Of a DNA stretch of 64,000 nucleotides, positions 8,314 through 57,096 are shown in pieces. The DNA comes from Azolla caroliniana. Its lineage: Eukaryota > Plantae > Polypodiophyta. Numbering within the stretch: the first letter of the stretch is position 1; the number at the start of each line of letters is the position of its first letter. A program made the translations under genes and the position numbers. The notes under the pieces were generated by a model that worked only from the letters and a program-made list of their open reading frames with translations, was not told where the DNA came from and did no database searches. Location of the stretch: positions 13,888,001 to 13,952,000 of the forward strand of contig JBHGNT010000008.1 of NCBI GenBank assembly GCA_043228905.1, given 5' to 3'.

Positions 8314-8506
8314 TGTCATGATAACACTCACATCATGCATCGAAACGATCATGACACTCATATCATGACTCGAAAGGATTTGAACCCACGACCTTGTTGT
8401 ACACATGTCAAATCCTTAACCATTGTATTAGTATTCTTATATCTATAGTTTTTAGAATATGACATAGTAATTCTCTTTCAATAATCTCTCTATCTCTCTC
8501 TTGACA
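8314..8506 (+). repeat. Chromovirus 5' LTR, internally deleted (lacks the TCTAGA array and TATA)
   Basis: First ~150 bp match 21381-21530, then jumps to a CT-rich end ...TTGACA. Confidence 0.75.
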
Positions 8507-11500
8507 GTTTGAACCAATTTTTTCCTTCCATCTCTTCGTCTTCCACAAACCCTAACAAGTTCTCTTCTTCCTTCTCCTCTCCCCTCGTAAGCTATGGAGT
8601 CCGTGAGCAAACAAGAATACATGTGTGTTCTTTCTGAGCTCGACATGCTCATGAATAAATTTGTGGCATTAGAGCATGAGAATCAAAGACTAGTTGGAGA
8701 CCTAGAACACGTTGTCATGCCTTTCGGCGCCAGATCGTTGCGTGAGTCGGGTGGGAACCGCCAGGGTTTTGGACTAGGAGGAAGAATTTGACGCTAATCT
8801 AGTTATGAGTAGATTACAAGAAAGAGATTTAGAAACTTGTGAGTTCCACAAGTATAGATTATTAGATTTATTACTATTTAGAATCCTAATTACAATTTAT
8901 CATAGATTGGAAGCGAGAGATTATATAAAACTTCGTGAATCCCACGATTATATTTTATTAATTGGTGTTTTAGGAAATATATCCAATTTCCAAAAATTTT
9001 ACTCCCCCATTACTTTGTGCTCCCCATCCTTATATAACGATGAGAGAGTCTTGGCAATCCATGCTTTTTCTCTAATATGCTTTTTCTAAAGTCATGCATT
9101 TTTTATCGACTATTGTGTTCATGCACGCCAGATGTGCATGTGTAGCTTTTTCTTTTACCATGTGTTTTCTTCTAACTAAAGTTTATCCTACTGTATACTT
9201 ACCTTTCTATGTGGGACGTCTAGTTTTTTAACAATAATGATATGTTAGTGTAATGGTAAAGCTTCACATTATGTACATGGAGGTACAAGGTTCGAATCTT
9301 GCCATATGCATGTAACAATATTTTTTTTCTATTTACAAATTTGTCTCTTCATCCGGTGAGAGACTCTCACCGGCCTTCTTTATCCGGCTCTTGCCAATTC
9401 TGCTTGATCCGGTTCTTACTGGGTCCTCCTTACCAGTTCCTCCTTCATCCGGTTCTCACCGGTTCTCCTTACCGGTTCCTCCTTACCGTCCCATCCGAAG
9501 GAACCAAAAATGCAATTTTCACATAGTGTGTGAATTACACTACGACACTTGCCCCCTCCAAACCCGCACATCCTTCGATATGTGCCAAAGTTCCTGATGC
9601 TTGTTGTTCTTCTTCATCTGTAGCACTTCCCAATTCCTCCCTTATATCAACTATCAATTGTAGACCACTTTCTTCGCTTTCTGCATCACCATGAGCTTTG
9701 TTCGATTGCTCCTTGTTATCAGTCTTGTCTAAGCTTACATAAGGTTCACCATCAGTCCGCTTCTTAAAAATCTTCACCCGTTTCCCCGCAATGGGCACCC
9801 GTAGTATTGTTCCATCCAACTCGCATAGCCGGTAAGTTCCGTTGTCAAGAACTTTCCGAACCTTGTATGGCTCGAACCACCTCTTAGCGAACTTCCGTAT
9901 TGTTGTATGTTGATGATCCAAACTATTGTCATAGAAAATCACCCAATCTCCTTCTTCAATCTTCCGTGGTCATAGTCGGTGCTTTATGTCGAACCGGCTT
10001 TTGTTCCGGAATCACACTTCTTGTTGTCGGCGTGTTTCTTCTACTATGTCTTCCTGTCTCCCCTCTAGTTGTCGTATCTGGACCGCTAGTAGTTCTTCCC
10101 GGCTCATCTCTTCCTTCCATGGTACCATTGTCCATGTCGTGATCGCGGTTTTCGTCGGCATCACCGGTGCTTGTCCGGTCATAAGTTCTGTCGGCATATA
10201 ACCGGTTACGGAGCTATGCATCGTCCAATCCGCCCATAGTGCATACGGGAGCATTTGTGGCCAATCCTTCACCCTTCTGTCTCATGCTTCGGCAAGTGCT
10301 TTGACGATCGGACTATGTCCTCGTTCGATTTTCCCGTTGGCCTTCAGATTGTATGCCGTTGTTAGTGTTAACCGAACTCCATGTTTTGTGAAGAATTCCC
10401 TAGCTTTATCAGAGTCGAGTTCTCCCTGATCCACAATCACTTGTCCTACGCACCCGTACCTGCAAAACACCTCCTCCAAAAGAAATTGGCATACCACAGA
10501 ACACGTTTTCCTTCCTAGCGCCCGACCTTCTACTTGGTTTGTGAGATCTTCCCGAGCTAACACCAAGTACTTCTTTTGTCCGATCTCAGTTGGCATAGCG
10601 ACAATGTCGACCATCCATTTGAAGTTGATTGTCGGTGAGAATGTTGGATGTAACTCATCTCGGTGTCGAATTCCGGAGTAGATTTGACACTTCTTGCAGC
10701 TTTCCGTGAACTCCACTATATCTTGGTACATATTCTTCCACCAATATTTTTGTTTGATTTTCACAAAAGTTGCCCATGTTCCTCGATGTCCAACCCAATC
10801 GGATTTGTGAAACTCGAACATTATCCGGTTTCGTTGCTCTTTCGTCCCGACTACTCGAAGTGGTATGCAATCCGGTCTTTTCGACTCCCTCCATATTAAT
10901 CCATTTTTCAAGAAGAACTTTTGGACTTGCCTCTTCTTCCTTTGGATCTCGGCTCTCTTCTCTTTATCATCCGATGATTCCTCAATCTCTTGTAGCACCT
11001 TCCCGATCATCAAGCTTTCTCCCTCGTATTCTTCTTCTCGTAATTCTCAGATTACGTTTACTCGGCATATGTGCTCCGAAGCAAAGTACTCTTTAGAAAC
11101 TTCTTCATTATCGGATTCGGCTATGTCGTCTCCGAACCGAGCCCTTGATAGCATATCCACTACGGCGTTGTCTTTTCCAGAGATGTGTCGTACGTCCAGG
11201 TTAAGCGACTTAACATATGCAATCCATCTTAGCATAGCCACATCCGGTATCGTGCAACACCGCATCATCCCAAGTATCGGAAGACAATCCGTTTCGATCA
11301 CTACTTCGGCTCCGATCAAATAATCTCGATCTGATTTGATTTCTGACACGACTCACCATAATTCTCTTTTGACTTGTGCATATCCGCGTTGCCTTTTGTT
11401 GAGAACCTTTGCTCCGAAGCAGATCGGATATCGCAAACCATCCGAGTCGGCTTGATTGATGATCCATCCGATCCCGGTTGGACTTGTATCAACTGTTACT

Positions 11501-12971
11501 ATGATCGGTCGCTCATAGCTCGGCTTCTTAAGTGCTTCAGCCCTCCGTAGTGTTTCTTTGAGCTTCTTCATGGCTTTGGTGTGTTCCGGTTTCCATTCGA
11601 ACTTCTTCCCGTTCCGCAATAAGTGATAGAGTGGGTCCGCAATATGTGCATAGTGTGGAATCCATATGTGATAAAATGCACAAGCTCCAAGAAACCTTCA
11701 AACTTCATATTGTGACTCGCATACTTCCTTCATAGCTTGAATCGCATCGATCTTGGTTGGTGACGGTCTTCGCCGTAGGGTCCACATAGATGTCCGACTA
11801 CCAATATTTCTTCTTGTCTGAATGCCGATTTCTCTCCGGAAAGTGTTAGGTGCACATCTTCTAACTTTCATAGCACTTTCTCACAATCGCGAATATGATC
11901 AACTACGAACTGTCGGCATCCCCGATCATCCATAGTCTCATCTTTTTCTTCCACCGCGCATCCTTTCATTGGAATGTCATTCAGGAACGGCATCGTTATC
12001 TCCAGAATACAGTCTCGAAGCACCTTGTTCATTGCATTCATCATATGTGCAACCGAGTTTGTTGCTCCTTGTGGTAGTGTGCACATTTGGACTAATCCTA
12101 TCGGTGTCCGCATGGTCGTGATGTCTCGGCTCTCTACGGCTAGTTGGAATTGGTCATACCCCGACCCGAGTATAGGTCTCCGATGGAGTATATCGCACGA
12201 CCGGCAAATGCTTCTGCAAATTCATCCACTATCGGACCAACTCCGGAGTTCCGGATCGTGACCTTGTACACCGGTTGCAAGTCTTGGATAAATCGGAGTG
12301 ACCCATTCTTCTTCGGAACCGTAAACCATTGATTTGAGTATGAATTGTTCGATGGCTCTAGAATCCCCATCGCCACCTTCTCCTTGAGCAAGTCGATGAT
12401 TTTGGGAATATGCGCCCGCGGCACCGGAATTGGCTTCAGATTCCACGGCACATGGTCAATCGTGAAGATCACCATCGGCTCCACTATCTTCGGATCAACG
12501 CACCCTATCTCCTTCGATGTGAATGTAAATGCTTTCCCATGTTTTTCCAACATCCCACGGAATCGTTCTTCTTCATTTTGTAAAAGGAAACTACCTCCAC
12601 CGATCCGAACTTTCTTCCGGGTCTCATCCATGAAGGCATGTCCGATATCCACGGACTTCCGAAGTGTCGGATCTCCCAAGACTTCTTTCCTCTTTTGCTC
12701 GCTATTGGCGGGTAACGGTCCTGCAACTGGTTTCACTTTCTTCTCCACGGTCTTGTATTTCGTACTTACCATTGCTTCTTCTTTGTGGAGCCCATCCGGC
12801 CCCATTTTCGCAATGATCTCGTAAATCTCGACCGATTCCATCGGGACTACCTGGTCTCCTTGGCTTTTATCCTCCACATGCTCTTCACGCCGTTGTAGTG
12901 TGCTCCCAGAGAACACTTCTTCGACTACCCCCACGATTTCTTCGTCTTCTTGTATTATTGATGCCGACCGC

Positions 12972-13678
12972 TGTCGAGCCCTTCGGCTCCGGATCGTTGC
13001 GTGAGTCGGGTGGGAACCGCCGAGGTTTTGGACTAGGAGGAAGAGGAATACAACTTAAGGCTAGTTATGAATAATAGGAAGAGAAGTAAGATAGTAATCT
13101 CGTGAATCCCACGAGTTTAGTGTATTTTAAAACAATATTTAGATTATAAGAGTAATTTAGATGGCAAAATTTGTGAATCCCACGAATATATTAGATTGAT
13201 CAATCCTTCTATATTAATCAACAACCTTATACATATTTCTCTCCTCCTTATATAAAGATGGAAGAGGCTAAGCATGGCTTCATGCTTTTTCACCTAAAGT
13301 GTCCATGCACACTAAATGTGCATGTGATGCTTTGTCATTTTCTAAATATAGGGCTCATGCACGCTAGATGTGCATGAGTCACTTTTAATGGCACGTGTAA
13401 ATAAAATATTCACACTCTAAAGAATACATGATTTTTACCTTTTAATAAAGGTATGTGTAAATAAAGGTCTTATACGTATTAAATCTATATTTATAACACT
13501 AAAGATAAGTTATTACAATGGTAAAGTTGGGGTTTATCTACGTGGAGGTGCATGGTCCGAATCTTGCCCTATGCACGTGATAAATTCTTTTTGATATATT
13601 ATTTATTTATTTATATGTATCTAAAATCGGATATATTATTTTATGGTTTTCACGTAGTGTGCGGAATACACTACGACA
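12972..13678 (-). mobile_element. Solo LTR of the Trp-primed gypsy family, inserted between PR and RT of the 8713-16752 element
   Basis: TGTCGAGCC...CTACGACA; CCGC on both flanks; shares GAGTCGGGTGGGAACC and GGTTTTGGACTAGGAGG with the host LTRs. Confidence 0.92.
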
Positions 13679-15909
13679 CCGCAACTCATCCTCTACTTTT
13701 CGGTATTATTTCTTCTTTCCTCCGGTTACGGCTGTGTACGTAGATGCCCCATCCGGACCGATTCGTACTTGTTTTGCTCCACGAGTTTTCTTCCTGTGTG
13801 GGGTATCAGGGCTTCTCAGACTATCTCTTCCCCACTCCGCAACAGTCCGCTCTAAAAATCCATCCTTGTTTGGGACAAGAGCTCTCTCTTGTTCCTTTCA
13901 TGATTTGACGGCACAGTTAGGAATTGGACGGATTTCTCTCTGCTTTGACTCTGAATTCGTGCAAAAGCTGCACCGCTATTGAGTACCTTCATCTCCATCT
14001 ATGATGCCGTGATAAAGGGTTGCCCGAGGATCACGGAGTGTGAGACCTCATCTTGCACGAAGAAATTTTGGTCTATCTCCACATCTCCGATCTTCACCGT
14101 CACATCCGGACAAGCCGCAAATAGGTGTTATGTTGCTTTAGTGGCTGCCCGGATCTTCCATCCATGATTAGTATTAATAGGCCACTTCCCCTTTCGGTAG
14201 AACTCCCTAGACATCAAGTTGATCTCCGATCCGTAATCAATCAATGCTAGCACGGGCTCTTTGATGTTGCCGATTCGAACCGAAGTCTCCGTAGTTGCAC
14301 GTCCCCAATGTGGCCTTGTGTAGTGGGAGTTTGGAATTTCGTTCTCCAATTCGGTGTCATTCATTAAAACAGTATTTGCATTCACCCTTGGAGCATTTTC
14401 CTCCGTACTTTGTCTTTTTCTCTTCACAAGATCCACAAGAAGATCATGGAACTCCTTCTTTGCTATTCTAAATAATTCCCAAAGCGAAAATTTCACCCGG
14501 CTATCGAGGATTCTCTCCTCGAACACTTTTTTCAAGTCCATTTGTTGTTCGATGTCCGAGGCGGGTTTGAATGCCGGAATCGTCTTTTCTTTCCCCTTCC
14601 CTCCGGAGTTCCAGCTTTCTAGTGTCTTTGATGGTCCGGCCGCATCATCCATGCGTTGTCGTTTCTCGTCTACATACACCTCATGCAATTGGCATAGGGC
14701 GTATACACTATTCTTATCAACGGGACACTCCCATCTCGTAGTTTCTCGGATGCCTTCCGCGGTGCTTCGGATATCATTGGAATCGGTTTTTTCAGGGTTT
14801 TCTAGCACTTCCGGCCAAAAAGACACCTTTGCTCCGATGACTCCCCGACATGTATTCCCGCAGTTGTCGCATAATTGCTTTTCGCTGTTATTTCCTCCTC
14901 GAGGACCTTCTTCATGCCGCCTCTCCGGAAGTTTGGTCGGAGTGGCTTCCAAGAGTCCATCGAATGGATCCGATTTCCCTCGTAGTAGATAAGATCCCGT
15001 CGTAACGCCTCCTTGTGCTAGTCGCAATCCCTCCGATCATGTTCGGTACTATCGCACCATATGCACCGATGATCCATATACTTGGAGCTTGTGGGACGGT
15101 CATCCGACTTCTTTACCATCGCGATTTTCAGATTCTCCATTTCTTTCAGCAACTGCTCCACCGTGGTTGCATCGATTCCCTTCTCGGTCGTAGTCTCCTG
15201 AGCCCTCGGTTGATGGTCTTCCAATCCGGATCTCGGTTTCGGAATTGGTTTTGAAACCCTTTTTTCTTCGCTAGTAAGCCATTGCCCCCTCTTCGTGTAT
15301 CGCACGATGATATCCCACATGCTTTCCCATGTTTCGGTGAGGCCACTGTCAATGGTCATGTCCTCCAAAAGCACTCCAAGATCTTTCCGGTCCCAGATGT
15401 CCATGGCTCATAGGAACATGATCACTTTGTCCGGTGCGAGGATAGCTTGATCTCTCGTAGACAACCTCCCGAACTGACTTTCGAATGATGAAAACACATC
15501 GAGGACCTTCATCCCCTTATCCGGTGTTTCCACCCAATCTTCGAATCCCCTCCTTGTTTCCTTGGAGGAGTCCTCAATGGCGAACGTGGTCTTTAGCGCC
15601 TCTTCAAATGCCTCCCATGTCGGATTGTGCTGCCGTATCCCGTGGATACTCCCTTGAAGCCCGTCGGTCGCCACCCGGTTGAAGGATGTCACTTGCAGTC
15701 CTTTCGAAATCTCGCACCGTAGCATTTCCACCTTGTAATCTCGCAAATTTCGTGACACATCTTTCCCGTTGAATTGCCCGTTCCATTCCACGAGCCGCTC
15801 TACTGCCGCTGCAATCTCTGACATCGCGGGTTGTTCTTGTAGCATCCGCTCAAACATCGCCATCATGTTGTTAGCCCCCGGTTGATTTTCCATCTCCTTG
15901 CCACCCAAT

Positions 15910-15927
15910 TTCACGTCGGGTTCACCA
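15910..15927 (-). promoter_or_regulatory. Primer binding site complementary to tRNA-Trp
   Basis: Minus TGGTGAACCCGACGTGAA, 4 nt from the 5' LTR; matches the recalled 3' end of plant cytosolic tRNA-Trp (UUCACGUCGGGUUCACCA). Confidence 0.85.
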
Positions 15928-17755
15928 CTTGTGTCGTGCCTTTTGGCGTCGGATCGTTGCATGAGTCGGGTGGGAACCATCGGGGTTTTGGACTAGGAGG
16001 AGGAAGAATTTGAGGCTAATCTAGTTATGATTAGATTACAAGAAAGAGATATAGAAACTTGTGAATCCCACAAGTATAGATTATTAGATTTATTACTATT
16101 TAGAATCCTAATTACAATTTATCATAGATTGGAAGCGAGAGATTATATAAAACTTCGTGAATCCCACGATTATATTTTATTAATTGGTGTTTTAGGAAAT
16201 ATATCTAATTTCCAAAAATTTCACCCCCCTATTACATTGTGCTCCCCATCCTTATATAACAATGAGAGAGTCTTGGCAATCCATGCTTTTTCTAAAGTCA
16301 TATATTTTTTATCGACTATTATGTTCATGCACACCATATGTGCATGTGTAGCTTTTTCTTTTACCATGTGTTTTCTTCTAACTAAAGTTTATCCTAGTGT
16401 ACACTTACCTTTCTATGTGGGACGTCTATTTTTTTAACACTAATAATATGTTAGTGTAATGGTAAAGCTTCACATTATGTACATGGAGGTACAAGGTTCA
16501 AATCTTCCCTATGCATGTAAGAATATTTTTTTTCTATTTACAAATTTGTCTCTTCATCCGGTGAGAGACTCCCATCGGCCTTCTTTATCCGGCTCTTGCT
16601 GATTCTGCTTGATCCGATTCTTACCGGGTCCTCCTTCATTCGGTTTTCACCGGTTCTCCTTACCATGTCCTCCTTACCGGTTCCTCCTTGCCATCCCATC
16701 CGGAGGAACCAAAAATGTAATTTTCACGTAGTGTGCGAATTACACTAGGACAACGTGAGCGCCGAAAAAGCTCAACAATATGAAGACTTATCATAGCAGG
16801 TTCATCAACTTGATGCGACTATATTGTCATTACGAGAGCAAGCGTCAGGGGCTTAGAACTTCACTAGAGAGCCAAAGATCAGCCTCCCCGCCAAGTTTGA
16901 TGGTACGAGGTCTTTATTTCGAAGCTTTTTGAATCAAGTTCGTCTGGTTATTCAGCTACATCCCAATCGGTATCCAACTGATGTTGCTCGTGTGGGATTA
17001 GTGGGAACTTTGATATGCAGTATAACGTTAGCATGGTTCGCACCACTTCTCGAGAAGAAATCACCATTGCTGGAGGATTTTGAGGCATTTGTTAAAGAGT
17101 TTCAAGCTAGTTTCGGAGACACCGACATCACTAGGACAACGATAAACAAGATTCGAAGGCTCCGACAAGGAGATCGTCCTGCGTCAGCTTACGTAACCGA
17201 TTTCTGTCTCTTGGCATGTAATATCCCTTGGGATGAGGCAGCCTTAATGTATCAATTCCTTCAAGGTTTGTGAAATGATGTCAAAGATCTTCTTCTTACT
17301 TTCTCTAAAGATCTGAAGTCGCTTATAGAAGCCATTAGTCGAGCCGTGTGATGTGATAATCGCCTATTTGAGCAATGTTCTGAGCGCCAACAAATGTTAC
17401 ACCGTCAACCTGAGCAGACTTACGCTTTCGTGGTTGCAATGCCTCCACAAGTTTCTAGACCCATTACAAGGGATGACCCAACTCCGATGGAAATAGAGTC
17501 AACACAACGTCGTGGGCCATTATCAGATGCTGTGAAGCAACGGCGTCAAGCGCATCGCCTCTGCCTATATTGTGGCAGTCCAAGACATATAGATGTAAAT
17601 TGTCCACATAAACTTAGGCATCAAGTATACCAAGTAAGTGCCCATGAAAACCCTACATCGAGTTCTATTGTTACTTCTAATAACATAAGTAAGCCTCATA
17701 GTCCATGCCATGAGAATAGATTCAATGTCTTGAGTCAATTAGAGGATGTGTTAAA

Positions 17756-20700
17756 CGAGTAATTTCGGCCAAAATAGGAACCATTTGGCTGGACCATCCT
17801 AGCTATGTAGAGTTAGTTCCTAGTCATGGTTCCATTTCATCAAATCAAGTGAGTAGAGTTTTTTCAGCACAAGTCGAGCTTACCACATCTACATGTCATC
17901 AAGTCCTAACCTCTGCCCTCCTAGATTCTGGAGCCAACTCTTGTTTCATGGATCGTGAATTTGCCTTGTCACAAAACATCCTCTTGAATAAGCTTCCCAG
18001 CCCAATAGCTATAGGAGTCATTGATGGACGTCCCAAAGCATCAAGAGATATAGTCGAGGAGTCCGAGCCAATTAGGGTAGTTCTTGGCGATTTGGCAAGC
18101 ATAATCTCTTTCAACATTATTCGTAGTCCGGAACACCGAATAGTTCTAGGTCTCCCTTAGTTTGAACTCCATAACCCGAAGATTGATTGGATGAAAAGAA
18201 CAATTGAGGAGACCCGGGAAAAAAGCACAAACCCCGCATCCCTCTCTCCTACATGTGATAATAGATCCCCGGAGTTATCGACCATCTCTTTATGATAGTT
18301 GCTGGAGGAAGGGGGGAACGAGGCCATGTTCGTCTTCATAATAGTAGCAACTCCATCATCCACTTCACTGGAAGCAGACATTAAAGTACCAAAGAAATAC
18401 AAGGAGTTTTTAGATATTTTTGATAAGGTGAAGGCCAATACATTGCCGGAGCATCAGCCATACGACTGCCATACAACTAGGGAAAGAACCTCCATGGGGC
18501 CCAATTTATAATCTCTCCCCTACAGAGCTAGAGACTTTGCGGGAATATATTGATGAGAATCTGGCAAACAGATTCATTCGGCATTCTAGATCCCCTGTAG
18601 GTGCACCTATCTTCTTCATTAAGAAGAAGAATGGGACTCTTCAGTTGGTCATGGATTATCGAGAGCTAAACAAAGTGACTATCCAGAATAGATATGCTCT
18701 ACCATTAATCCCGAATCTTTTGGAATGTCTCAGTGGTGCAAAATATTTCACAAAGTTGGACCTTTGCGAAGCATATAATCTAGTTCGGATTCGCCCAAGG
18801 GATGAACGGAAGACAACTTTTCGCACTCACTATGGACATTTTGAGTATACTGTGATGTTATTCGGTCTCACGAATGCACCTGTTGTTTTCTAACATAAGG
18901 CGAACGATATTTTTCGAGATTTTCTTGATATCTGCATTATAGTTTACCTAGATAATATTTTAATCTACCCGAAGACCCAAGAGGAGCATGACGAACATGT
19001 TTGTCAGGTACTGTGTCGACTCCGAGAATATGGTCTCTACGCAAAATTACAAAAGTGTAGTTTCGGCCAGAATCAAGTGGAATTTTTGGGGTATGTTGTA
19101 TCATCGGATGGTATTTCTATGGATCCCATGAAAGTACAAGAAATTTAAGAGTGGCAAACGCCCCTTTCAGTGCATGATGTGCAATGTTTTCTCGGGTTTG
19201 CAAATTTTTATCGAAAATTTATTAAAGATTATTCCAAGGTTGTGCTTCCGCTTGCTCAACTCACACATAAAGATTAGCCATTTATATGGAGTTCAAATGC
19301 AGCCGAGACATTCGAAAGCTTAAAACAAGCATTTACAACGGCACATATCTTAACACATGTCGACCCAACAAAACGCTTCATCCTCGAAGCCGATGCATCT
19401 GATTTTGCATTAGGAAGTGTCCTCTCACAGACTGGAGATGATGGACAGCTACACCTTGTCGCCTTTCATTCACGAAAGTTTGAAGCTGCAAAGATCAACT
19501 ATGAGATCCATGACAAAGAGCTTCTTGCAATTGTGGATTCGTTTAAACAATGGCGACATTTTCTAGAGGTTCTTCTGAACAAATCATTGTCTACAATGAT
19601 CATAAGAACCTGACTTATTTTCAAAATGCTCGAGTCTTGAGTCGGCGACAAGCCCGGTGGGCGCAATTTTTGACTCACTTCGACTTTATGATCATATATC
19701 GCCCTGGGATGTAGCAAGGAAAAGCATATGCTCTTTCTCGGTGCTCTTATATGGAACTTCGTCCAGGGGAACCTGCATTTGAGCATCAAAAACAAATCCT
19801 TTTGGGTCCTAATCGATTACAATTAATGGTAGTTAACGCCATAACTCTTGAAAATTCCACTCATCTTGACTCCATTTGAGATCATATGGCCACTGATGAT
19901 TTCGCCAAGGATGTTTTGGATCATATCGTCCCGGATCGTGCTTCTTGCTCACGGTCAAAAAATCCTCGTAATGACTATCGTCAGTTCTATTGGCATGGTG
20001 GTTTTCTATTTCGACAAAATCTATTGTATGTTCCTAATGGTCCCCTACGACTACAAGTTTTACAACATTGCCATGACTCATCTATGGCTGGTCATTTTGG
20101 AGTTCGCAAGACTCTAGAATTAATTTCTCGACGCTATTGGTGGTCTCTCCTTCGTCATTTTGTTGAGGATTATGTTCGGAGTTGTGATATATGTTGTCGA
20201 TCAAAGAGTCCTCGTCACCGATCCTATGGCTTACTACAACCACTTCCCATTCCAGAAACTCCTTGGAAGTCTATATCCTTGGACTTCATTACTGATCTCC
20301 CAGTTTCAGAAGGTTTTGATGCAATTCTCACAATGGTTGATCGATTTACCAAAATGGCACATTTCTTGCCATGTACAAAGTCGATTACTAGTCAAGAGGC
20401 AGTTGATCTCGTTATGTGGGAGGTATTTAAGCATCATGGTCTGCCGGAGTTTATTATTAGTGATCGTGGTCCACAATTCATCTCAAAGTTTTGGAAGCAC
20501 ATGTTCAAACTTCTCCACATTTCGATTAAGCTTTCTTCGGGCTATCATCCCGAAACAAATGGCCAAACTGAGTGTACCAACCAAACGTTGGAACAATATC
20601 TTCATTGTTTCATCAACTATCAACAAGATGATTGGGTTGATTTTTTGCACTTGGCGGAATTCGCTTACAACAACTTACCCCATTCTTCTACAGGATATTC

Positions 20701-21388
20701 CCCATTTTTCGCAAATACGGGCTGTCATCCTCGGTGGATGATGAATGCACATCCAGACGTTCCTACCAACCCTGCTGCTGAGGATCGTCTTAGTCGCCTC
20801 CAAGAAATTCACGCTACCATTCTCCACAATTTGCATGATGCTCAAGTTACACACAAGAGGCTTGCCAATCGTCATCGTCTAGACTCCTCAAAAAAGTTCC
20901 GCGTTGGGGATCGTGTATGGCTTCTCCAACACAACCTCAAGACCACTCGACCTTGCAGTAAATTGGATTACCAACGTTTTGGCCCTTACATGATCATTGG
21001 TAAGATAAGTGATGTTGCATTTCGTCTTGACCTCCCTCCGCACATGCATCTTCACCCGGTGTTTCATGTATACCTTTTGGAACCTTATACTACAAGTTCA
21101 ATTTTGGGCCGTCTTACGACACCCCCCACCACCTATCGAGTTCTTGGATGGCCCGAATTTGAAGTTGTTTCCGTTCTCGATTCTAAAATCGTGCACAACA
21201 AGGTGTATTACTTAGTCGATTGGCTAGGCTATACCCCCAATGATCGAACTTGGGAACCTGCTGCAAATCTTTCCAATGTTGCGAAACTCGTCACAGCATT
21301 TCATCGCCAATATCCTTGTAAACCAGGTCCTAATACAAACCCTACGACCCGTGACACATGTCGTCGAAGAAGGGGGATAGTGTCATGA
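17756..21388 (+). pseudogene. Chromovirus pol (PR-RT-RH-INT-chromodomain)
   Basis: ALLDSGA (PR); [21 protein letters not shown] and FTKLDL (RT); 500-aa ORF 19886-21388 with HHCC, DDE core, GPY and chromodomain EFEVVSVLD...YLVDWLGY...TWEP. Confidence 0.93.
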
Positions 21389-22306
21389 TAACACTCACAT
21401 CATGCATCGAAAGGATCATGACACTCTCACATTATGACTCGAAAGGACCCACGACCTTGTTGTACACATGTCAAATCCTTAACCATTGTATTAGTATTCT
21501 TATCTATATAATTTTTAGAATATGACATCTAATATCATAGGAATATTCTATATTGCTCTACATTCTAGAATGGCCTAGAATATTCTAGAGTGTTTTGGAA
21601 CCTTCTAGAATACTCTAGAGATCTTCTAGATTACTCTACATTCTAGGATAACCTAGAATATTCTAGAGTGTTTTGGAACCTTCTAGAATACTCTAGAGAT
21701 ATTCTAGATTACTCTTCATTCTAGGATAACCTAGAATATTCTAGAGTGTTCTCTATTACTTATAAATAGGGATCTACAACTCATCCCAAACCTAAATTTG
21801 TTCAACTGGAACCTTCTAGAATACTCTAGAGATCTTCTAGATTACTCTACATTCTAGGATAACCTAGAATATTCTAGAGTGTTCTCTATTACTTATAAAT
21901 AGGGATCTACAACTCATCCCAAACCTAAATTTGTTCAACGCTCTAGAGCGTTGAACAAATTTAGGTTTGGGATGAGTTGTAGATCCCTATTTATAAGTAA
22001 TAGAGAACACTCTAGAATATTCTAGGTTATCCTAGAATGTAGAGTAATCTAGAATATCTCTAGAGTATTCTAGAAGGTTCTAGTGGTATAGAACACTCTA
22101 GAATATTCTACGTCATTCTAGAATGTAGAGTAATATAGAATATTGTGATATTAGATGTCATATTCTAAAAAGTATACATATAAGAATATTAATACAACGG
22201 TTAAGGATTTGACATCTGTATAACAAGGTCGTGGGTTCAAATCCTTTCGAGTCATAATGTGAGTGTCATGATCCTTTCAATGCATGATGTGAGTGTTATC
22301 ATGACA
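21381..22306. repeat. Palindromic 3' LTR (U3 plus inverted U3) with TCTAGA-rich tandem units
   Basis: Symmetry centre GCTCT|AGAGC at 21944/21945; inner arms 21809-22080 nearly perfect; outer arms roughly 90% identical by eye; direct duplication of 21677-21806 at 21810-21939. Confidence 0.92.
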
Positions 22307-24754: not shown

Positions 24755-24805
24755 TGTTGTGACTTGAGAATAGGAGAGAGAAAAATAAGATGACAATAGA
24801 AGGTA

Positions 24806-24857
<52 letters not shown>

Positions 24858-25231
24858 ACATTAGAAATGGAAAGAGAGTTTATATTATAAGAGAGCAAGG
24901 ATTACAAAGAGTAGGCTAAGGGGCTACAAACTGGACCGTGTTGAACCGAATGAGTTGTGATGAATAAATAGACACCTGTTTATATGTCCTTATGGAGTAT
25001 TCTAGAATGTTCTAGAATATTTTAGATATTTATGATATTTAATATAATCATGGAATATCCTAGAATGTTCTAGAATGTTCTAGAATACTCTAAATATCTT
25101 GTAATAACTAATAATACATTTATTATAACTATACATTATATATGTTAGTATAATGGTTAAAGGTCTAACATATAGACCAAGATGTCTTGGGCTCAAATCC
25201 TTATAAGGCCAAAATGTATGTCTTCATGACA
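24755..25231 (-). mobile_element. Solo LTR related to the chromovirus LTR
   Basis: Minus strand begins TGTCATGAAGAC; TCTAGAAT array; GTCCC TSD (24750-24754, 25232-25236); contains (AG)n. Confidence 0.88.
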
Positions 25232-27418: not shown

Positions 27419-28050
27419 TGTCACGAAGATTCGCGCGTGTGTGTGCTACTCGAGTGACTATCGGGGTCTTGGACTGGGGAGGACGTTCGTGGAATTATCG
27501 AAGAGATGATGATCAATGTAAGATTGGATGAAATTTTATTCACCTGAGAAGAAGAAAGATTGTACACTTGAGAAGTAGAAAAATATGAAGAGGATAAAGA
27601 CGAATATAATTATATTGATGTTAGTGGTGTTGGTGATATCACATATTGAACCCCCCTTTACACAAGCTCCACTAGGGTTTTTATAGCTCTCTTCATGCAC
27701 AAAACCATGGGTTTAGAACCATGGTTTTGGGGACATGGTTTTGCTTATGACATGCACAGTCCATGGGTTTAGAACCAAGGTTTTGTGCACATGGTTTTCT
27801 ACGGTTGTTTCGTCTATAATTCGCATATGAAAAGGAAATACATAAGTCTACACCATATGATAGTTGTCCTACTGGTAAGGCAAACATCTTGTATCTTAGA
27901 GGTGCAAGGTTCAAACCTTGCTTGCACCCCTCTGTATGAACTCAAGTGCCACTAGGCCTTAGGCTTATTTGCTAAGTGCATGTGCAATGGTGCACATCCT
28001 TTGTTTATTCGTCTCACTCGGTTTCACACCGTAGCCGAAAATAGTCGACA
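27419..28050 (-). mobile_element. Divergent solo LTR, distantly related to the Trp-primed family
   Basis: TGTCACG...GTCGACA; GGTCTTGGACTGGGGAGG resembles the family motif; interrupts copia C RT (LPKEK|ALQNKW). TSD not cleanly recognisable. Confidence 0.7.
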
Positions 28051-32358: not shown

Positions 32359-33014
32359 TGTCGTGCCTTTCAGCTCCGGATCATTGCGTGCATCGGGTGG
32401 GAACCACTAAGGTTTTGGACTAGGAGAAGAAGAATATGAGATAGTTTTTGTTACGAATAGATTGCAAGATAGAGATGTGAAACTCGTGAATCCCACGAGT
32501 ATAATGTATTAATGGATACTTAGATTGTAAGAGAGAACTAGATGGTAAAATCGTGAATCCCACGAATATTTTGTATTAATCAATCCTTAAAAAAAAAAAA
32601 TCAACAACCTTATACATCTTTCTCTCTTCCTTATATAGTGTTGGAAGAGTCTAAGTTTATCACATGCAAGCATCATGCTTTTCCTAACTTTAGTTTTCAT
32701 GCACATTGCATGTGCATGATTAGCTTTCTATCCCATCTTTTCTTTTAACTCGAGTGTGTATGCATGAATAGCTTTTTGTACCATGCATATCTAGAATATT
32801 TACATGGGATAAAGTTTAGTATAACTTTTAAAATTCATAGTATGCTAGTATAGTGGTAAGGCTAGGGTTTGTTTACGTGGAGGTACAGGGTTCGAACCTT
32901 GCCCTATACATGTAATAGATATTTTTAATATTTTATTTTTTATTTATTATTCGTACTCTAAATCGGATATAGTGTTTTACATATTTCACGTAGTGTGTAA
33001 TTCACACTACGACA
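32359..33014 (-). mobile_element. Solo LTR of the Trp-primed gypsy family
   Basis: TGTCGTGCC...CTACGACA; ACGT on both flanks (32355-32358, 33015-33018). Confidence 0.92.
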
Positions 33015-33556: not shown

Positions 33557-33884
33557 TGTTGAGCGGCAAGCTCAACCGGAGCCGGATCGGCTGAATAAGC
33601 CGGAGCCGGTAAGTGAGACGGATCGAGCGAAACGGATCGGTATTATGGTGAGCAACCGAACTGGCAAGCAGTGGAGGCCGGGTGCAATCCGTAACCGGAA
33701 GTCCAATCGGAAGCCTAGCATAGGATAGACTACTAGGTAGCTATAGTCTCGTAGTAAGTGTCAGATGCTCGTGTGAGCATTGAAGTACATGGTACTTCTA
33801 TCAGTCCCAAGAGGACTTGGATAAATAGTGCTACTTAGCACTGTGTGTGTACAGAGTTTTGATATAATTTTGAAATCGTGTTCT

Positions 33885-46146: not shown

Positions 46147-48108
46147 CCATCCCCCGGTTGTCCTCTGCACTTTGCAGGAATCGTGGTCGCCAAAATAGTG
46201 TTGTCTGCTTGGCCGGACTAGCCTCAACACAGGTGTCTATCCGACACTTCTCCAAAGGGGTGGTAAGGATTGGATGCTAGGTTACACGCGTAAGATTATT
46301 ACAATTAAGAACAGACGGTAAAACAATACAGAGATACAGATAAACACGCAATAATTCTATTTGTATTACTTCCGTCCAACCCTTTACAAATCATCGGATC
46401 CTTTTATAGGCATCCGGCAAGGTTACAATCGGTGCGCTTAGGCAACCGACATCCGAATCGGTCCGGATCCGGATCGGTACAACTGTACCGGATCCGTCCC
46501 TCCGAATAATAATTCTACTATCATTTACTTCCTATTATCCGATCCGACTCCACCTTCCCACTTGTCCTTGCTCTTCTGACCGGCCAACAACAGTTTCAAG
46601 TTGGTTTCGACTTTAAGACCTTTTGCATACATTGCCGACTTTACCTTGTTTGATTCGAGAATATACATTTTTCCTTCTCAGCGACCGAGAGCGATGAGGC
46701 GACCATCTTTTTCGATGAAGCACCCTTCATCATTGAACCTCACTTACATCCCTTGTTCGACAATCTGGCCTACCGAGACTAGGTTTTTTAGTGATGGTTG
46801 GGACATGCAAGACATTTTTGAGGTAGGTTTGTTTGTCTTCGTTCCCGAATGGGACGTTTCCAATGTGTCGTATTGAATGAATTGTCTCATCACCTATTTT
46901 GACATAACCGGGCCGATCGGGCTTTCATAATTCTCGGAACCAATCTTCATGAGACGTCATATGATTGGACACTCCCAAGTCAACAAACCACACATTATCC
47001 AAGGTTGAGGTACTTGTCTCACCTTGTGTCGACATCGAATGTGCTTTGGGCCTCATCATAAACATTCTGCCACGGTCATCATAGTCGAAATTTGAGGTGT
47101 AATTTGTAAGTTGTCGGTTGGTCGACACCAACTCTCGCTTCTTCTTTCAGCACTCCTCTTTGTAGTGGCCGAGTTTTCCACAGTACCCGCATTTGATCGA
47201 GTTGTTGTGATGGCTCAGTCTGGCAGGATGGCTCCCCCTTCTGCCGAACTCCCTGGAATTGTTCCTATCGTCTTGCCATTGGTGGGAGCTGTGTTCTCAG
47301 GTCGACTGACCTTGTCGCCCTCGGCCGAATCGACCTCTATTTCCTCGTTCGAATCCTCTTCTATCATCCGATTGTGAGTAAAGCATCTGACGATCCGGTG
47401 CATTGCTCCTTTGTCAGGCATGGTTTTCTTCCACCAATAATATGGATTGAAGGTCGAAAAAGGAAGGTGGGTTCTCCCTTGCAAGAATGGCCTACCTGAT
47501 TGCGCCAAAGCGTAGTGCTAAGATGTCGAGGCATATTTGCACCATTTCATCATCGTCAATGGTGACATTGATCAATCCGAGGGCATCACACAGCTACTTG
47601 ATTTTCAAGGTATAGTTGGTGATCGACATATCCCTCTTTTGCATGTTGTTTGGCTCCTGTCGAAGTTGGAGCTTTCGTGCAGCCGTATTGGCCGAAAAAA
47701 TCTTCTTTAGATTTCCCCAAGCTTCTTTCGGTGTTTTCGAATCTCGAATATAGCCAAGCATGTGGTCATGAACGCATGATGCAAGGCAGTATAACACATG
47801 GCTCACGGCCTGCTCCCATGTTGGGTAGTCGGCATGTGTCGGGATGGGTTGCGTTTCGTGAGCTCCATCGATGTAGCTCTGGTAACCTTGTCCGACAAGG
47901 TACTGATGCATCTTGTACTCCCAAGATGCGAAGTTTGTCCTGTCGAGCTTCTCCATAGGAAGAGCGCTTCCCATTTGAGTATTCATGATGATTTCTTCTC
48001 TATTTTAGAACCGGTTTTGTTGTTCGTCGGTGTGTAGCACAACACAGTCGATTAAGCTTGATCAAATAACCACACGTTGTGATACCATGTAAAGAATGAG
48101 AGGCATAG

Positions 48109-51100
48109 TGTTACCCCGTACAAGATGTACGGAGAGTCAGTGTGATGAGCGAGGGTCGAATGTTATCATGATGTTGTTGTGTATGTGTAGGGGACATAAA
48201 TGTAATTGTGAGTCTATACGTATGTGAACACATGCACACGTGTGTGCATGCGGATAGATACATAGGGGTGTAAGCCCCCTCGAGCATTCATACTGGACAC
48301 TCACTCACACCCTCAAGTTTTTTAAATCTCACAAATGCCCCTCTCTTCTCTTTTTTCCTCTCTCTTGTTTTTCGATTTCATCTATAATTTCACTTTTACT
48401 TTTAGGTCATTTTTTCCATTTTTCTGTTTGTCTTCTTCTCATTTTCTTACATTTTTTTTTTTCCCCCCTTACATTTTGCGTCTTCTCTAGTCTTCTACTC
48501 TTGCGTGCTTCCTTCTTCTTGGTGTTAACTGTTGCATCTTCTGTTCTTCTTGTCTTTCATTTCCTTTTCTCTGTTCTTCCACTGCTAATGGTGCTTCTCT
48601 TTCCTCTTTGTTTCATCGTTTCTCTTCTTTCTTTCTTTGCGAGTTCTTCTTGTTTGATGTCTTCTGCAAATCTTCTCTCTTTCTTCCTTTGTTTCTTCCA
48701 CTTCTTCCTGTTCTATTTTGGTGTTTCAGGGTAGGGAGGAAACATGACCGTCACTCTCCCTTTGCTTGCACGTCATCTCCTTCTTTGTGTTGCCGCCGTC
48801 ATTTCCGTTGCCCAACCGTGGTTGTCCGTCTCTTTCCGGTCCTTACACCTGCTACCGCATCATCCTGCCGCCTCCAATCGTTGATGTTCGGCCCGTCCGT
48901 TCTCGGCTGTTTGTCTGTGTCTCCAACTCCGTCTGGTCAGTCAGTCAGATTCAGCCGTTATTGTCTGTCCGGCCCGTCGTTTCAACGTCATCGTCGTTCT
49001 AGCTGTCGGTTCTCCGGCCATTCTTGTCGCTTTTCGGCGGTGTCGCTGTTCTGGTTGTTGTCCAGTCGCTTCTCGGGCCGCTCCGATTGCTCATGTCCGG
49101 TCACTCTCCGGCCTATCCGACCGCTCGAATTGTTGTTCGTCGTTGTCATCGTCTCCTTCGCTTTTCGGCGGCTCTGTCCTCATCGACGGCACCGTCGCTT
49201 TTCGGTGTCCATGTCCCATCATTTGGTTGTTGCCATTGTCGTGGCTGTGCATTTCGGATATCGTCTCTGTCGCTCTTCGGCTCTATCCGGCCGTCATCCC
49301 ACTGTCTTCCAATCGTGTGTCTGGTCTGTCCGTCTGTGTGGTCGCTTATTCGGCCCATTTGACCCATCCTACTGTGTCTTGTGTCTTTTTGGTCGCCTTT
49401 GTCTAGTGCATCTGTCCGTATCTTTCGAGCGCTATTGGTTGATGTCTGGTTTGCATCTGCATCCCCTCCGTCTTCTTCGGCCCTTCGGTGTTAACCGGCT
49501 CCGGTTCTGGTTCCGATTCCGGTTCCGACTCTCTCTGTGTTGCTACTTTTAGAACCACCTCTCGTGCATTCTCAGCACATCCTGCCGGTCTCCGCTCCAC
49601 ACACTACGACTTTCTTTGCAGTCTCCTGGTGGGCTTCTCTTTCCGGTCGTGCTGGCACCGGTTCCCACTGCATCGCAGTTTGTACAGCCGTGCATCTTGC
49701 ACCACGCTTTCAAAAACACGCACATTGTCGCTAACCGCATCGGAAACCCGCACATTGACACTAATCTCAACCTCGCACAACCATTGTTGCCATTCATGCA
49801 TTCCTCCATCGCATCATCATTTCTTGCACTCGTACACAAATGTCATCGTTTCCATTTCTTCGCTTGCGCATACATTGAACATCGTCGTCGTCATTTGCAT
49901 GTTTCTGTCATTTCTCGCACATCATGCTGCCACGTTCTCTTCTTGGACTTCTTCATCAAAGGGGGTCCGCCGTTGTGGTCGCCAAAAGGTGTTGTAGGTT
50001 TTAGGGTTAGGGTTAAGGACGATGATGATGATGAATGATAACTATGATGATTGGTAATGAAGATAGACATGGTGATGGAGAGTATGATGGTGAGAGAGAT
50101 CATATAGAGAAGCATTGCGGGGTGGGGGGTGGTGCCTAGAATGGCCCCACCCCCCTCCCAAGGGGGTTCAACATGAGAGAGGGAGAGAGAAGAGAAAAGG
50201 TGTCAAAGAGAGAGAGATTAGAGAGAAAATGTTCATTCATATTTCATTCATTCCCCATAAGGGGTTAAATAGTACAAGAGGGGGTAGATACATAGGGGTG
50301 TAAGCCCCCTCGAGCATTCATACTGGACACTCACTCACACCTCCTTGTATCCATCCGCATGCACACACGTGTGCATGTGTTCACATACGTATAGACTCAC
50401 AATTACATTTATGTCCCCTACACGTACACAACAACATCATGATAACATTCGACCCTCGCTCATCACACTGACTCTCCGTACATCTCGTACGGGGTAACAC
50501 AATATGGCACGCCCGTGGGAGAGTGCCTTGCACGTCGATCCCACATGCCTTGATGATGATATTTCTTCGACCGGAACTTCCATCGGTCCTTTCAACGATC
50601 AACTCCCTCGATCGGAGTGCTTGACTCGAACATCTTTGTCGGTCAGCAAATCTTTCCGCGACACAACATTCTCGTTCTGTCGGCTTACGAACTTCGTCAT
50701 GGGTCTAAAATAACATTGTGTGTATGTGTGTTCTTCTTTCTATTTTGTGAGTTATCGTGATAGGGAGGAAACACGACCGTCACTCTCCCTTTGCTTGCAC
50801 GTCATCTCCTTCTTTGTGCTGCCGCCGTCATTTCCGTTGCCCAACCGTGGTTGTCCGTCTCTTTCCGGTCCTTACACCTGCTACCTCATCATCCTGCCGC
50901 TCCAATCGTTGATGTTCGGCCCGTCCGTTCTCGGCTGTTTGTCTGTGTCTCCAACTCCGTCCAGTCAGTCAGTCAGATTCGGCCGTTATTGTCTGTCCGG
51001 CCCGTCGTTTCAACGTCATCGTCGTTCTGGCCATCGGTTCTCCGGCCATTCTTGTCGCTTTTCGGCGGTGTCGCTGTTCTGGTTGTTGTCCAGTCGCTTC

Positions 51101-51917
51101 TCGGGCCACTCCGATTGCTCATGTCCGGTCACTAGATGGAGCAGCAGTCGTACAGTGGCAGCCGCCGGATAGGGGCTGGATCAATTTTCGGAATGTGCAA
51201 AGACACATAACGGTCAGAGTGGCTGAACGGTGAGAAACCGGAGGCGGACGAACCGGATGGGCTAGACAAACGAACGGAGGACCGGAAAGATAGGGTCGAA
51301 CATGAGCAATCGGAGAGTGACCGGACATGAGCAATCGGAGGCCTTCGACCGGAACAGGAAGTTCCGGTCGAAGAAATATCATCATCAAGGCATGTGGGAT
51401 CGACGTGCAAGGCACTCTCCCACGGGCGTGCCATATTGTGTTACCCCGTACAAGATGTACGGAGAGTCAGTGTGATGAGCGAGGGTCGAATGTTATCATG
51501 ATGTTGTTGTGTATGTGTAGGGGACATAAATGTAATTGTGAGTCTATACGTATGTGAACACATGCACACGTGTGTGCATGCGGATGGATACAAGGAGGTG
51601 TGAGTGAGTGTCCAGTATGAATGTTCGAGGGGGCTTACACCCCTATGTATCTACCCCCTCTTGTACTATTTAACCCCTTATGGGGAATGAATGAAATATG
51701 AATGAACATATTCTCTCTAATCTCTCTCTCTTTGACACCTTTTCTCTTCTCTCTCCCTCTCTCACGTTGAACCCCCACCCCCCACCCCGCAATGCTTCTC
51801 TATATGATCTCTCTCACCATCATACTCTCCATCACCATGTCTATCTTCATTACCAATCATCATAGTTATCATTCATCATCATCATCGTCCTTAACCCTAA
51901 CCCTAAAACCTACAACA
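48109..51917 (+). mobile_element. Non-coding LTR element with internal inversion and duplication; LTR copies 48109-48261 (partial, +), 49990-50499 (-), 51439-51917 (+)
   Basis: CATAG TSD (48104-48108, 51918-51922); TGTTA...CAACA LTR; PBS and 3' motif shared with the 36.5-46.6 kb gypsy; no retroelement protein motifs. Confidence 0.88.
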
Positions 51918-52799
51918 CATAGATGGTGCTATGCAACGGCCGTGAGCTTTGTGTGTGATTGTGTGTGAACGTGATGCAAGAGAGAGAGAGGGAGGGAGGG
52001 AGGGAGGGAGGGAGAGTTCTAAACAAGAAAATTGTATATTACCGCCAATAGTTACTCAGATACAAAAGGTTGGTTTAAATACCAACTAGTCTAGGCAAAT
52101 GCCCTTTCTATTAATTATAGAAAGGTCCTAGTAAGTTGTCCATTGCCTAGTGTGAACACTATTCCTATGAGAAGTTGAGTTCGATTCTCAATATGAATCT
52201 TGTTAGAGGTGATAAAGGGATAAAGATGAACAGAGAATGTAAATCTGTCAACAATGAAGCGAATAGATATGCAAATATGTTAACCAACATTTTGCTACCA
52301 TTACCCACCCATTCAAGGATAATATGAAGTACACTTGAAAAGAGGAAGAGAAGGAGAAGAAGCAGTCCATTACCTAATCCAATAATCATGGATCAATTGT
52401 CGTCATTGCCCCTGGCTATCGGCGTCGGACCTAGAGGTTCGTGTTGTTGACACCAAGCACCACATTTCGAGGTTCTACACATACACATGAATGTCCCAGA
52501 CATCATATTTACTAATGTTGTTTTTATTTAACACCAAAATCAAGTGATTCCAAATTGCATCATTACTTTCAAGTTGGTCTTGGTCAAGATCATCTATAAC
52601 TTGAAATCACAACCCTTGTTGAAATCCTTATAATACCACTTTTTTAGATCTGATTTTAAGTTCGCTAGTTATAGTTGTAATAGATAGCATTCAACATTTG
52701 AACATAGTAACACTACCATCTACATAAAACTGAGAAGAGAATGATACATGTGAAATATGTAACAAACTTGGTATTAGCATGGTCTATTGTATGCTCTAA

Positions 52800-57090: not shown

Positions 57091-57096
57091 GGTATT

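What the first reader, a model, noticed from the sequence alone, without database searches (positions are those of the whole stretch)
9240..9330. tRNA-like Pol III module (A box, B box, T-run) antisense in U3 of the Trp-primed gypsy LTRs
Seen: TAGTGTAATGG (9246), GGTTCGAATC (9289) and a long T run at ~9320. The same module recurs at 16447-16535, 13508-13592, 32841-32926 (TAGTATAGTGGTAAG...GGGTTCGAACC) and, more diverged, at 27860-27930 (GCAAGG-TTCAAA-CCTTGC hairpin). A-to-B spacing of about 44 nt matches a short-variable-loop tRNA. The boxes are kept while flanking LTR sequence diverges. The module lies upstream of the LTR TATA and points out of the element. Established: A and B boxes recruit TFIIIC, tDNAs act as chromatin barriers, and Cassandra TRIMs carry 5S promoters in their LTRs. 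Inference: this is a captured tRNA/SINE head acting as an anti-silencing barrier, a Pol III promoter, or the source of an ~85-nt RNA.
Basis: partly seen in the sequence, partly recalled or inferred. Interest (0 to 1): 0.82.

Follow-up and report, generated by a model that had tools for sequence, protein, structure and literature searches.

The report
tRNA promoter boxes bracket retrotransposon promoters
The end repeats of several full-length plant jumping-gene families keep the two promoter boxes of a tRNA gene at exact tRNA spacing, though the tRNA fold is lost, 150-270 bases upstream of their own presumed promoter, where the boxes likely recruit the host's tRNA transcription machinery to keep that promoter open.

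Summary
Real, and wider than reported. All five Phygy-type gypsy LTRs in the window carry the A-box/B-box module at identical spacing. Four more copies sit in chromovirus-type LTRs. Among related elements from metagenomes, 11 of 33 Phygy families (52-88% integrase identity) carry it, mostly antisense, some sense, up to four per LTR. Shuffles gave no hit; coding DNA gave one.

In nine orthologous copies the boxes are 84-88% identical, against 59-63% for the spacer, with no indels. The cloverleaf is gone. A T-run usually follows on the module's own strand. It is therefore a selected, tRNA-derived Pol III promoter, not a tRNA.

Best reading (0.5, untested): it recruits TFIIIC/TFIIIB and keeps the LTR's Pol II promoter open.

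Against: 14 adequately covered families lack it, some copies have damaged B boxes, host breadth is unknown, and there are no RNA or ChIP data.

Closest known: Helenus TRIMs. The scan noted tRNA-type boxes in fungal LTRs before, on other DNA (e1-10420520, e1-9852194).

The parts
9246..9258 (+). A box of the module (tRNA positions 8-21) in U3 of the Phygy 3' LTR
9289..9298 (+). B box GGTTCGAATC (tRNA positions 52-61), preceded by the conserved AGGT (44-47)
9275..9313 (.). imperfect inverted repeat with the B box at its tip (not the tRNA T-arm register; no strand bias)
9321..9328 (+). T8 run, candidate Pol III terminator 23 nt after the B box
9029..9037 (-). presumed Pol II TATA box of the LTR, about 208 nt from the A box
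   Evidence: motif call, start site not mapped
9038..9244 (.). stretch between TATA and module with CATGCA (RY-type) repeats
8713..9547 (-). Phygy 3' LTR (835 nt); polypurine tract at about 9548-9564
15932..16752 (-). Phygy 5' LTR; TSD ACGT/ACGT around the whole element; 51 substitutions in 814 aligned sites versus the 3' LTR
15910..15927 (-). primer binding site TGGTGAACCCGACGTGAA (tRNA-Trp; assignment from recalled knowledge, agrees with the Phygy type)
16452..16533 (+). module copy in the 5' LTR (B box GGTTCAAATC, T8)
13511..13592 (+). module copy in solo LTR 12972-13678 (TSD CCGC); its T55C change is private to this copy
32846..32926 (+). module copy in solo LTR 32359-33014 (TSD ACGT)
27865..27917 (+). 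module copy in distant Phygy-type solo LTR 27419-28050; no T-run nearby
8377..8430 (-). related module (spacer one base longer) in the 5' LTR of the chromovirus element into whose gag the Phygy element inserted
21446..21493 (-). same module in the chromovirus 3' LTR, B box partly deleted
22190..22243 (+). same module in the inverted LTR copy that ends the chromovirus insertion
25146..25199 (+). diverged module, antisense in U3 of solo LTR 24755-25231 (minus strand, TSD GTCCC; chromovirus-type by similarity of its LTR)

Best explanation
The module is a degenerate tRNA-derived A-box/B-box unit kept in the LTRs of full-length Phygy and chromovirus-type retrotransposons, and it likely works as a DNA element that recruits the host's TFIIIC, TFIIIB and Pol III to keep the LTR's own Pol II promoter open and shielded from silencing. 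Shown: box conservation, fixed tRNA spacing, loss of the cloverleaf, position 154-273 nt upstream of the presumed TATA, either orientation, and multiple copies. Inferred: TFIIIC binds; in the common antisense orientation TFIIIB is loaded on the TATA-facing side, over an RY-rich enhancer stretch; Pol III makes a throw-away RNA of about 85-95 nt that stops at the T-run, so it neither runs antisense into the element nor through the TATA; the result is a nucleosome-poor or barrier zone in heterochromatin. In four families a second, sense module 73-128 nt downstream of the TATA brackets the core promoter from the other side.
For: Identical box spacing in 5 of 5 window Phygy LTRs. Enrichment in LTR regions of related elements: 22 hits versus 0 in shuffles. 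Leave-own-family-out detection in 11 of 33 families spread over the integrase tree. Within nine orthologous copies, A box 0.84 and B box 0.88 identity versus 0.59-0.63 for the spacer and 0.49-0.64 for flanks; no gap over positions 8-72 while flanks have 12-26% gaps. Cloverleaf pairing at chance, 45.0% versus 47.3% shuffled, and random anticodons. tRNA traces outside the training profile: T33 in 14 of 18 lineage groups. T-rich tract follows the module's strand whatever its orientation: T4+ within 45 nt in 20 of 33 modules, A4+ in 3 of 33; T>A skew downstream in 16 of 18 groups. Position relative to TATA is constrained. Present in a second, unrelated gypsy lineage. Family-wide B box intact in 4 of 4 runs at the one B-box site listed. 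TFIIIC/TFIIIB barrier and nucleosome-free tDNA precedents: PMC9540200, PMC11346459 (passages).
Against: No binding, RNA or chromatin data. 14 of 33 families with about 900 nt or more of downstream sequence lack the module (5 with the LTR complete to a PBS), and it is missing from some members of positive families (L022, L014). C56T in the B box of L051 (a high-coverage contig) and L060, and other box changes in L028, L030 and window 25190. Module-bearing families are not more abundant than others in two assemblies (p 0.83 and 0.56, 5 v 5 and 4 v 5). No conserved upstream element beyond AT-richness (0.16 bits per site). The B-box CpG has decayed in the 5' LTR, as expected if it was methylated in this dead copy. 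Barrier activity of tDNA has not been shown in plants in the passages read. An inverted repeat around the B box is conserved in a subset, which a pure DNA-box model does not require.
Confidence: 0.5

Rival explanations
1. The point is the product: Pol III makes an 85-95-nt RNA (or antisense read-through) that regulates the element, for example as a decoy or a self-limiting antisense RNA.
For: Promoter plus T-run on one strand. Inverted repeat around the B box kept with two-sided changes: 70.4% paired versus 64.8 +/- 1.5, 0 of 500 shuffles; a 14-pair consensus in 11 copies; z below -1.64 in 9 of 21 antisense modules. RNA structure aids Pol III termination (10.1101/2021.08.27.457903, abstract).
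Against: No common fold over 20 antisense modules. The hairpin has no strand bias (G-U 22 versus A-C 19) and is absent from all 10 sense and both chromovirus modules. The structure was derived from these same related sequences, and CpG decay can mimic compensation. Spacer sequence is free and orientation varies.
Confidence: 0.17
2. Neutral relic: one or a few old SINE or tRNA-pseudogene insertions carried passively in U3 and shuffled among families by recombination.
For: Patchy presence, damaged boxes in some lineages, no copy-number advantage. tRNA head plus T-rich tail resembles a minimal SINE (recalled).
Against: Boxes conserved far above the enclosed spacer in orthologous copies, with no indels. 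Retained in families at 52-58% integrase identity and in a chromovirus lineage. No free-standing copy among hits in 64 kb of window and 434 kb of loci (mostly element DNA, so a weak test).
Confidence: 0.1
3. The bound TFIIIC/TFIIIB serves positioning, not promoter opening: a landing pad for tDNA-targeting elements, or a tether to TFIIIC-rich nuclear sites.
For: Orientation independence fits a DNA-level role. Ty3-type targeting of Pol III genes is known (search listing).
Against: None of the nine window modules has an insertion within 100 nt upstream (small sample). The constant distance to the TATA is not explained by it. Phygy targets NCGN.
Confidence: 0.1
4. It is the promoter of the element's genomic RNA, as in Cassandra and as proposed for Helenus.
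For: Same box conservation without tRNA function as in Helenus. Some families have sense copies.
Against: Antisense in all window copies and most families; followed by a terminator-like T-run; the element is over 7 kb, coding, and has a TATA-like promoter. PMC10886601 argues that autonomous elements must use Pol II.
Confidence: 0.04

Closest known systems
Helenus TRIMs / TRIMp3 (Kojima 2024, PMC10886601; parts 1-4 of 6 and searched passages read)
   Same: [quoted passage not shown]
   Different: Helenus are non-coding TRIMs of 311-1263 bp in which the box unit is proposed to be the genomic-RNA promoter. Here the hosts are 7-8 kb gag-pol elements with a TATA-like promoter; the unit is mostly antisense, T-run-terminated, sometimes multiple, and found in two gypsy lineages. 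The paper notes that 'not a few LTRs' in Repbase hold part of a tRNA but analysed only TRIMs.
Cassandra and Ajax TRIMs (5S-derived; as described in PMC10886601)
   Same: Captured Pol III internal promoter in an LTR.
   Different: Type 1 (5S) promoter that drives the element RNA in sense in non-autonomous elements; here type 2 (tRNA) boxes beside a Pol II promoter.
tDNA / TFIIIC insulators and ETC sites (PMC11346459, PMC9540200; passages)
   Same: A/B-box DNA acting through TFIIIC/TFIIIB on chromatin, independent of a tRNA product. This is what the module is proposed to work like.
   Different: Described for host loci of yeasts and animals; in the passages read, not shown in plants nor as a built-in part of retrotransposon LTRs. 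Binding was not tested here.
Phygy lineage of Ty3/gypsy (Neumann et al. 2019, PMC6317226; passages and supplementary file 3)
   Same: 4-bp NCGN TSD, tRNA-Trp PBS, no chromodomain, 7-8 kb.
   Different: No tRNA-like LTR module is mentioned in what was read; the reference Phygy sequences (supplements too large to read) could not be checked.
tRNA-derived SINE heads (recalled)
   Same: A and B box, degenerate anticodon arm, T-rich 3' end.
   Different: No TSD, body or free-standing copies seen; all hits lie in LTR or LTR-like sequence.

Membership tests
functional tRNA gene | cloverleaf pairing (acceptor, D, anticodon, T stems) | tested here: not met
   45.0% paired v 47.3% shuffled in 20 modules; each stem at chance in 33 modules
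functional tRNA gene | Rfam RF00005 or ARAGORN call | tested here: not met
   no tRNA hit at E<=10; ARAGORN 0 in window and 0 of 60 loci; at 85% threshold 5 of 33 modules v 2 of 660 shuffles, inconsistent isotypes
type 2 Pol III promoter | A box and B box at tRNA spacing | tested here: met
   box motifs as given in PMC10886601 and recalled consensus
type 2 Pol III promoter | downstream run of four or more T | tested here: inconclusive
   20 of 33 modules within 45 nt (19 of 26 U3 Phygy, 1 of 5 downstream sense, 0 of 2 chromovirus)
type 2 Pol III promoter | TFIIIC/TFIIIB/Pol III occupancy or transcript | not testable with these tools
   needs ChIP or small-RNA data from the host
Helenus / TRIMp3 | non-autonomous TRIM, about 1.3 kb or less, no coding region | tested here: not met
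   element 8713-16752 has gag-pol with integrase domains; relatives have RT-RH-INT polyproteins
Helenus / TRIMp3 | tRNA-derived boxes inside both LTRs | tested here: met
   9246 and 16452
Helenus / TRIMp3 | boxes placed to transcribe the element RNA | tested here: not met
   antisense and T-run-terminated in all window copies; orientation in Helenus itself is not stated in the text read
Phygy | 4-bp NCGN TSD | tested here: met
   ACGT, CCGC, ACGT; decayed in the 27419 solo LTR (v)
Phygy | tRNA-Trp PBS, non-chromovirus integrase | tested here: met
   PBS at 15910-15927 and the same 18-mer in many loci (Trp identity recalled); no chromodomain hit in the integrase ORF scanned
Phygy | phylogenetic placement with REXdb Phygy reference domains | not testable with these tools
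   reference file too large to read
SINE insertion | TSD, body/tail and free-standing genomic copies | tested here: inconclusive
   none seen in window or 434 kb of loci, but no whole genome was available
chromatin barrier (tDNA/TFIIIC insulator) | blocks spread of silencing in a B-box-dependent assay | not testable with these tools
   experiment needed

The most novel reading that the evidence does not exclude
In this plant lineage, unrelated autonomous LTR retrotransposons (Phygy families down to 52% integrase identity, and chromoviruses) have repeatedly captured and traded portable tRNA-box cassettes and placed them on one or both sides of their Pol II core promoter as built-in TFIIIC insulators: a protein-free anti-silencing device, and a first natural case of tDNA-type barriers in plants.
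Probability: 0.35. Interest if true: 0.86.

Novelty: new variant of a known kind. Interest (0 to 1): 0.68.

Why it matters
How full-length retrotransposons keep an active promoter inside methylated heterochromatin is an open question, and DNA-encoded chromatin barriers are poorly known in plants (PMC9540200, passages). A 55-base cassette with a two-base knock-out (B box), present in some families and absent in sister families, makes both questions directly testable. It also extends Pol III promoter capture from miniature non-autonomous elements to autonomous ones with an apparently different use. It warns too that such LTRs could add very many candidate TFIIIC sites to a genome that tRNA scanners do not report.

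Tried and rejected
Rfam and ARAGORN: no tRNA.

No whole genome is held, so the genome-wide LTR alignment was replaced by 80 metagenome loci (the best 80 of 247 confirmed). Viral and prokaryote collections gave nothing for the Phygy integrase, the chromovirus integrase or the module pattern, so chromovirus LTRs outside the window were not sampled, apart from one likely case (L052:12070-).

No RNA holder was listed among sequencing runs; this is no evidence on expression. Contig variants were obtained for one LTR only, with 61 rows not shown; a second read-laying gave no result, so per-site variation over the module remains open.

Cloverleaf rejected. One common fold for all antisense modules rejected. 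Strand-specific hairpin not supported. Copia and Tat-like LTRs of the window have no module (best 4.9 and -4.3 bits). Copy-number advantage not seen. Landing-pad pattern not seen in the window.

15 of 80 integrases with more than 3 stops were dropped from clustering and the tree; near-identical modules were dropped to give 33.

Literature searches for prior description. Only the Helenus paper bears directly; subscription papers, Repbase reports and the large REXdb supplements were not visible.

Full report
OBSERVATION. A pattern scan finds five copies on the + strand (9254, 13519, 16460, 27873, 32854), each spanning exactly 45 nt from TGGTA to the end of the B box. Numbered as a tRNA, the segment has the length of a short-variable-loop tRNA core. 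Neither ARAGORN nor Rfam calls a tRNA.

HOST ELEMENT. Position 9240 lies in the 3' LTR (8713-9547) of a minus-strand element whose 5' LTR is 15932-16752. It has the TSD ACGT, a PBS TGGTGAACCCGACGTGAA and integrase domains without a chromodomain hit. A 4-bp NCGN TSD with a tRNA-Trp PBS defines the Phygy lineage (PMC6317226, passages and supplementary file 3). The only named relatives of the integrase are from the liverwort genus Riccia (51-57%), so the host is probably a non-seed land plant; it was not identified. The other three copies sit in solo LTRs of different subfamilies. The module is antisense to the element and in U3, about 180-260 nt upstream of a presumed TATA. In the 5' LTR it points out of the element; in the 3' LTR, the copy the finding names, it points in. 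The two LTRs differ at 51 of 814 sites, and the coding region is broken.

A SECOND LINEAGE. A B-box scan found a related module, with a spacer one base longer, in the LTRs of the chromovirus (chromodomain integrase) into whose gag the Phygy element inserted: 8431-, 21494- (B box partly deleted), 22189+. A diverged one lies in a solo LTR at 24755-25231 that resembles those LTRs (25145+). All are antisense in U3. The window's copia and Tat-like LTRs have none.

RELATED ELEMENTS. An integrase alignment fetched the best 80 of 247 related metagenome loci, chosen without regard to the module. A profile trained on five window modules gave 22 hits of 16 bits or more in 18 of the 58 loci with at least 250 nt downstream of the integrase (48,923 bases), none in any of 20 doublet shuffles, and 1 in 235,185 coding bases, which lies in an LTR-like piece. 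65 of 80 integrases clustered into 33 families at 90% identity. With each family left out of its own training set (null: 0.6% of regions reach 12 bits), 11 families carry clear modules, 2 weak ones, 14 none in about 900 nt or more (5 of them with the LTR complete to a PBS), and 6 have too little LTR. Positive families are 52-88% identical to the window's integrase and scattered over the tree. Some members of positive families lack the module. All positive loci come from one series of assembly ids whose closest elements are 88-91% identical to the window's; the five loci from other collections show none. The feature may therefore be confined to one host lineage.

ARCHITECTURE. Modules are mostly antisense in U3, 154-273 nt upstream of the presumed TATA in nine loci. 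They are sense in U3 in L001, L015/L016/L028, L020 and L021, and up to four occur per LTR (L035). In four families (L030/31, L032, L035/41, L053) a sense module lies 73-128 nt downstream of the TATA, so that divergent modules bracket the core promoter (two TATA boxes read by eye). The stretch between module and TATA is rich in CATGCA repeats: 36 in 1,691 nt, 21 per kb against 0.9 per kb in all loci, and none in two module-less LTRs. The name RY element and its binding by B3 factors are recalled.

SELECTION ON THE BOXES. Across 33 distinct modules information is high in the A box (0.96 bits per site), AGGT 43-48 (1.23) and B box (1.38), and low in the anticodon arm (0.26) and flanks (0.14-0.29). 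This is partly circular, since the profile covers those boxes. The non-circular test uses nine orthologous copies of the window's clade: pairwise identity is 0.84 for the A box, 0.88 for the B box and 0.86 for positions 62-72, against 0.59-0.63 for the spacer enclosed between the boxes and 0.49-0.64 for flanks. There is no gap over positions 8-72, while the flanks have 12-26% gaps. Two features outside the profile also point to tRNA ancestry and a Pol III unit. T33 is kept in 14 of 18 lineage groups (background 0.33; groups not fully independent). A T-rich tract follows the module on its own strand whatever the orientation (T4+ in 20 of 33, A4+ in 3 of 33). In four runs from three coded organisms, nearly all contig depth has T at 13557, so the T55C change in that solo LTR is private (61 variant rows not shown). 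Against strict constraint: C56T in L051 and L060, and box changes in L028, L030 and window 25190.

STRUCTURE. The cloverleaf is not kept: 45.0% of cells pair against 47.3% in shuffles, and anticodons are random. Relaxed ARAGORN of 33 modules against 2 of 660 shuffles, with mixed isotypes: a trace of ancestry, not a gene. No single fold fits 20 antisense modules. A different inverted repeat, with the B box at its tip, is kept in a subset (70.4% v 64.8%, 0 of 500 shuffles; 14 pairs in 11 copies; z below -1.64 in 9 of 21 antisense and 0 of 12 other modules). It has no strand bias (G-U 22, A-C 19), was derived from these related sequences, and could partly reflect CpG decay or palindrome correction. 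It may help termination, as RNA structure does in yeast (10.1101/2021.08.27.457903, abstract only), or act on the element's genomic RNA. This is unexplained.

MECHANISM. Shown: a selected pair of tRNA promoter boxes at fixed spacing, free spacer, no tRNA fold, either orientation, constrained distance to the TATA, two lineages. From established knowledge: type 2 promoters bind TFIIIC, which loads TFIIIB upstream; four T suffice for termination in Arabidopsis (PMC10533338, passages); tRNA genes are nucleosome-poor, and TFIIIB/TFIIIC limit the spread of silencing in yeast (PMC11346459, PMC9540200, passages). Inferred: in the antisense orientation TFIIIB lands between module and TATA, over the RY stretch, and short terminated transcription keeps this region open without producing long antisense RNA. 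I put this at 0.5, a functional small RNA at 0.17, a neutral relic at 0.10, a landing pad or tether at 0.10, and a genomic-RNA promoter at 0.04. The absence from many families and the lack of a copy-number advantage show that it is optional.

COMPARISON AND NOVELTY. Helenus TRIMs have tRNA-derived boxes in their LTRs (PMC10886601; parts 1-4 of 6 and passages), but they are short and non-coding, and the unit is proposed to drive their RNA. The paper remarks that 'not a few' Repbase LTRs contain part of a tRNA, studies only TRIMs, and expects autonomous elements to differ in their LTRs. This element fails Helenus membership and is not a tRNA gene; it is proposed to work like a tDNA/TFIIIC insulator, which was not tested. 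Nine literature searches found no description for Phygy or plant chromovirus LTRs; a paper on Physcomitrium elements has no occurrence of 'tRNA' (PMC7466625, passages). The scan's own notes hold two fungal cases on other DNA (e1-10420520, e1-9852194; unchecked) and none for this genome or sequence. Verdict: real, selected, a new variant of a known kind; function inferred. Interest 0.68.

Noticed in passing
window 8314-22306: The chromovirus insertion has the same LTR start (TGTCATGATAAC, a U3 end) at both termini, inverted, with a 5-bp TSD with one mismatch in a copia gag; the 3' LTR folds back at 21944/21945 and the 5' LTR is internally shortened. Likely a reverse-transcription fold-back product inserted through two U3 ends.
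   Followed up: partly
window 9038-9244 and nine loci (e.g. L032:935-1131, L017:2219-2400): Dense CATGCA (RY-type) repeats between module and TATA, 21 per kb v 0.9 per kb; a candidate B3-factor enhancer that co-occurs with the module.
   Followed up: partly
L052:11980-12080: Antisense module near the start of an insertion in a copia RNase H that begins like the window's chromovirus-type LTRs; a likely further non-Phygy case.
   Followed up: partly
window 27419-28050: This solo LTR's end matches L020's LTR end while its module matches L032's: possible exchange of the module between sister families.
   Followed up: no
L035:3291-3391: Local duplication of the B-box half of a module, giving a third B box in U3.
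   Followed up: no
window 33636-33690 (copia LTR): A faint A-box/B-box-like pair at the same spacing in the copia 5' LTR, 4.9 bits, not significant.
   Followed up: partly
window 48100-51920: Complex of long inverted and direct repeats (420-nt arms 99% complementary, 144-nt arms 100%) with a 353-aa frame without Pfam hit.
   Followed up: no
window 56875-58677: 600-aa open frame, partly a GAA repeat, without Pfam hit.
   Followed up: no
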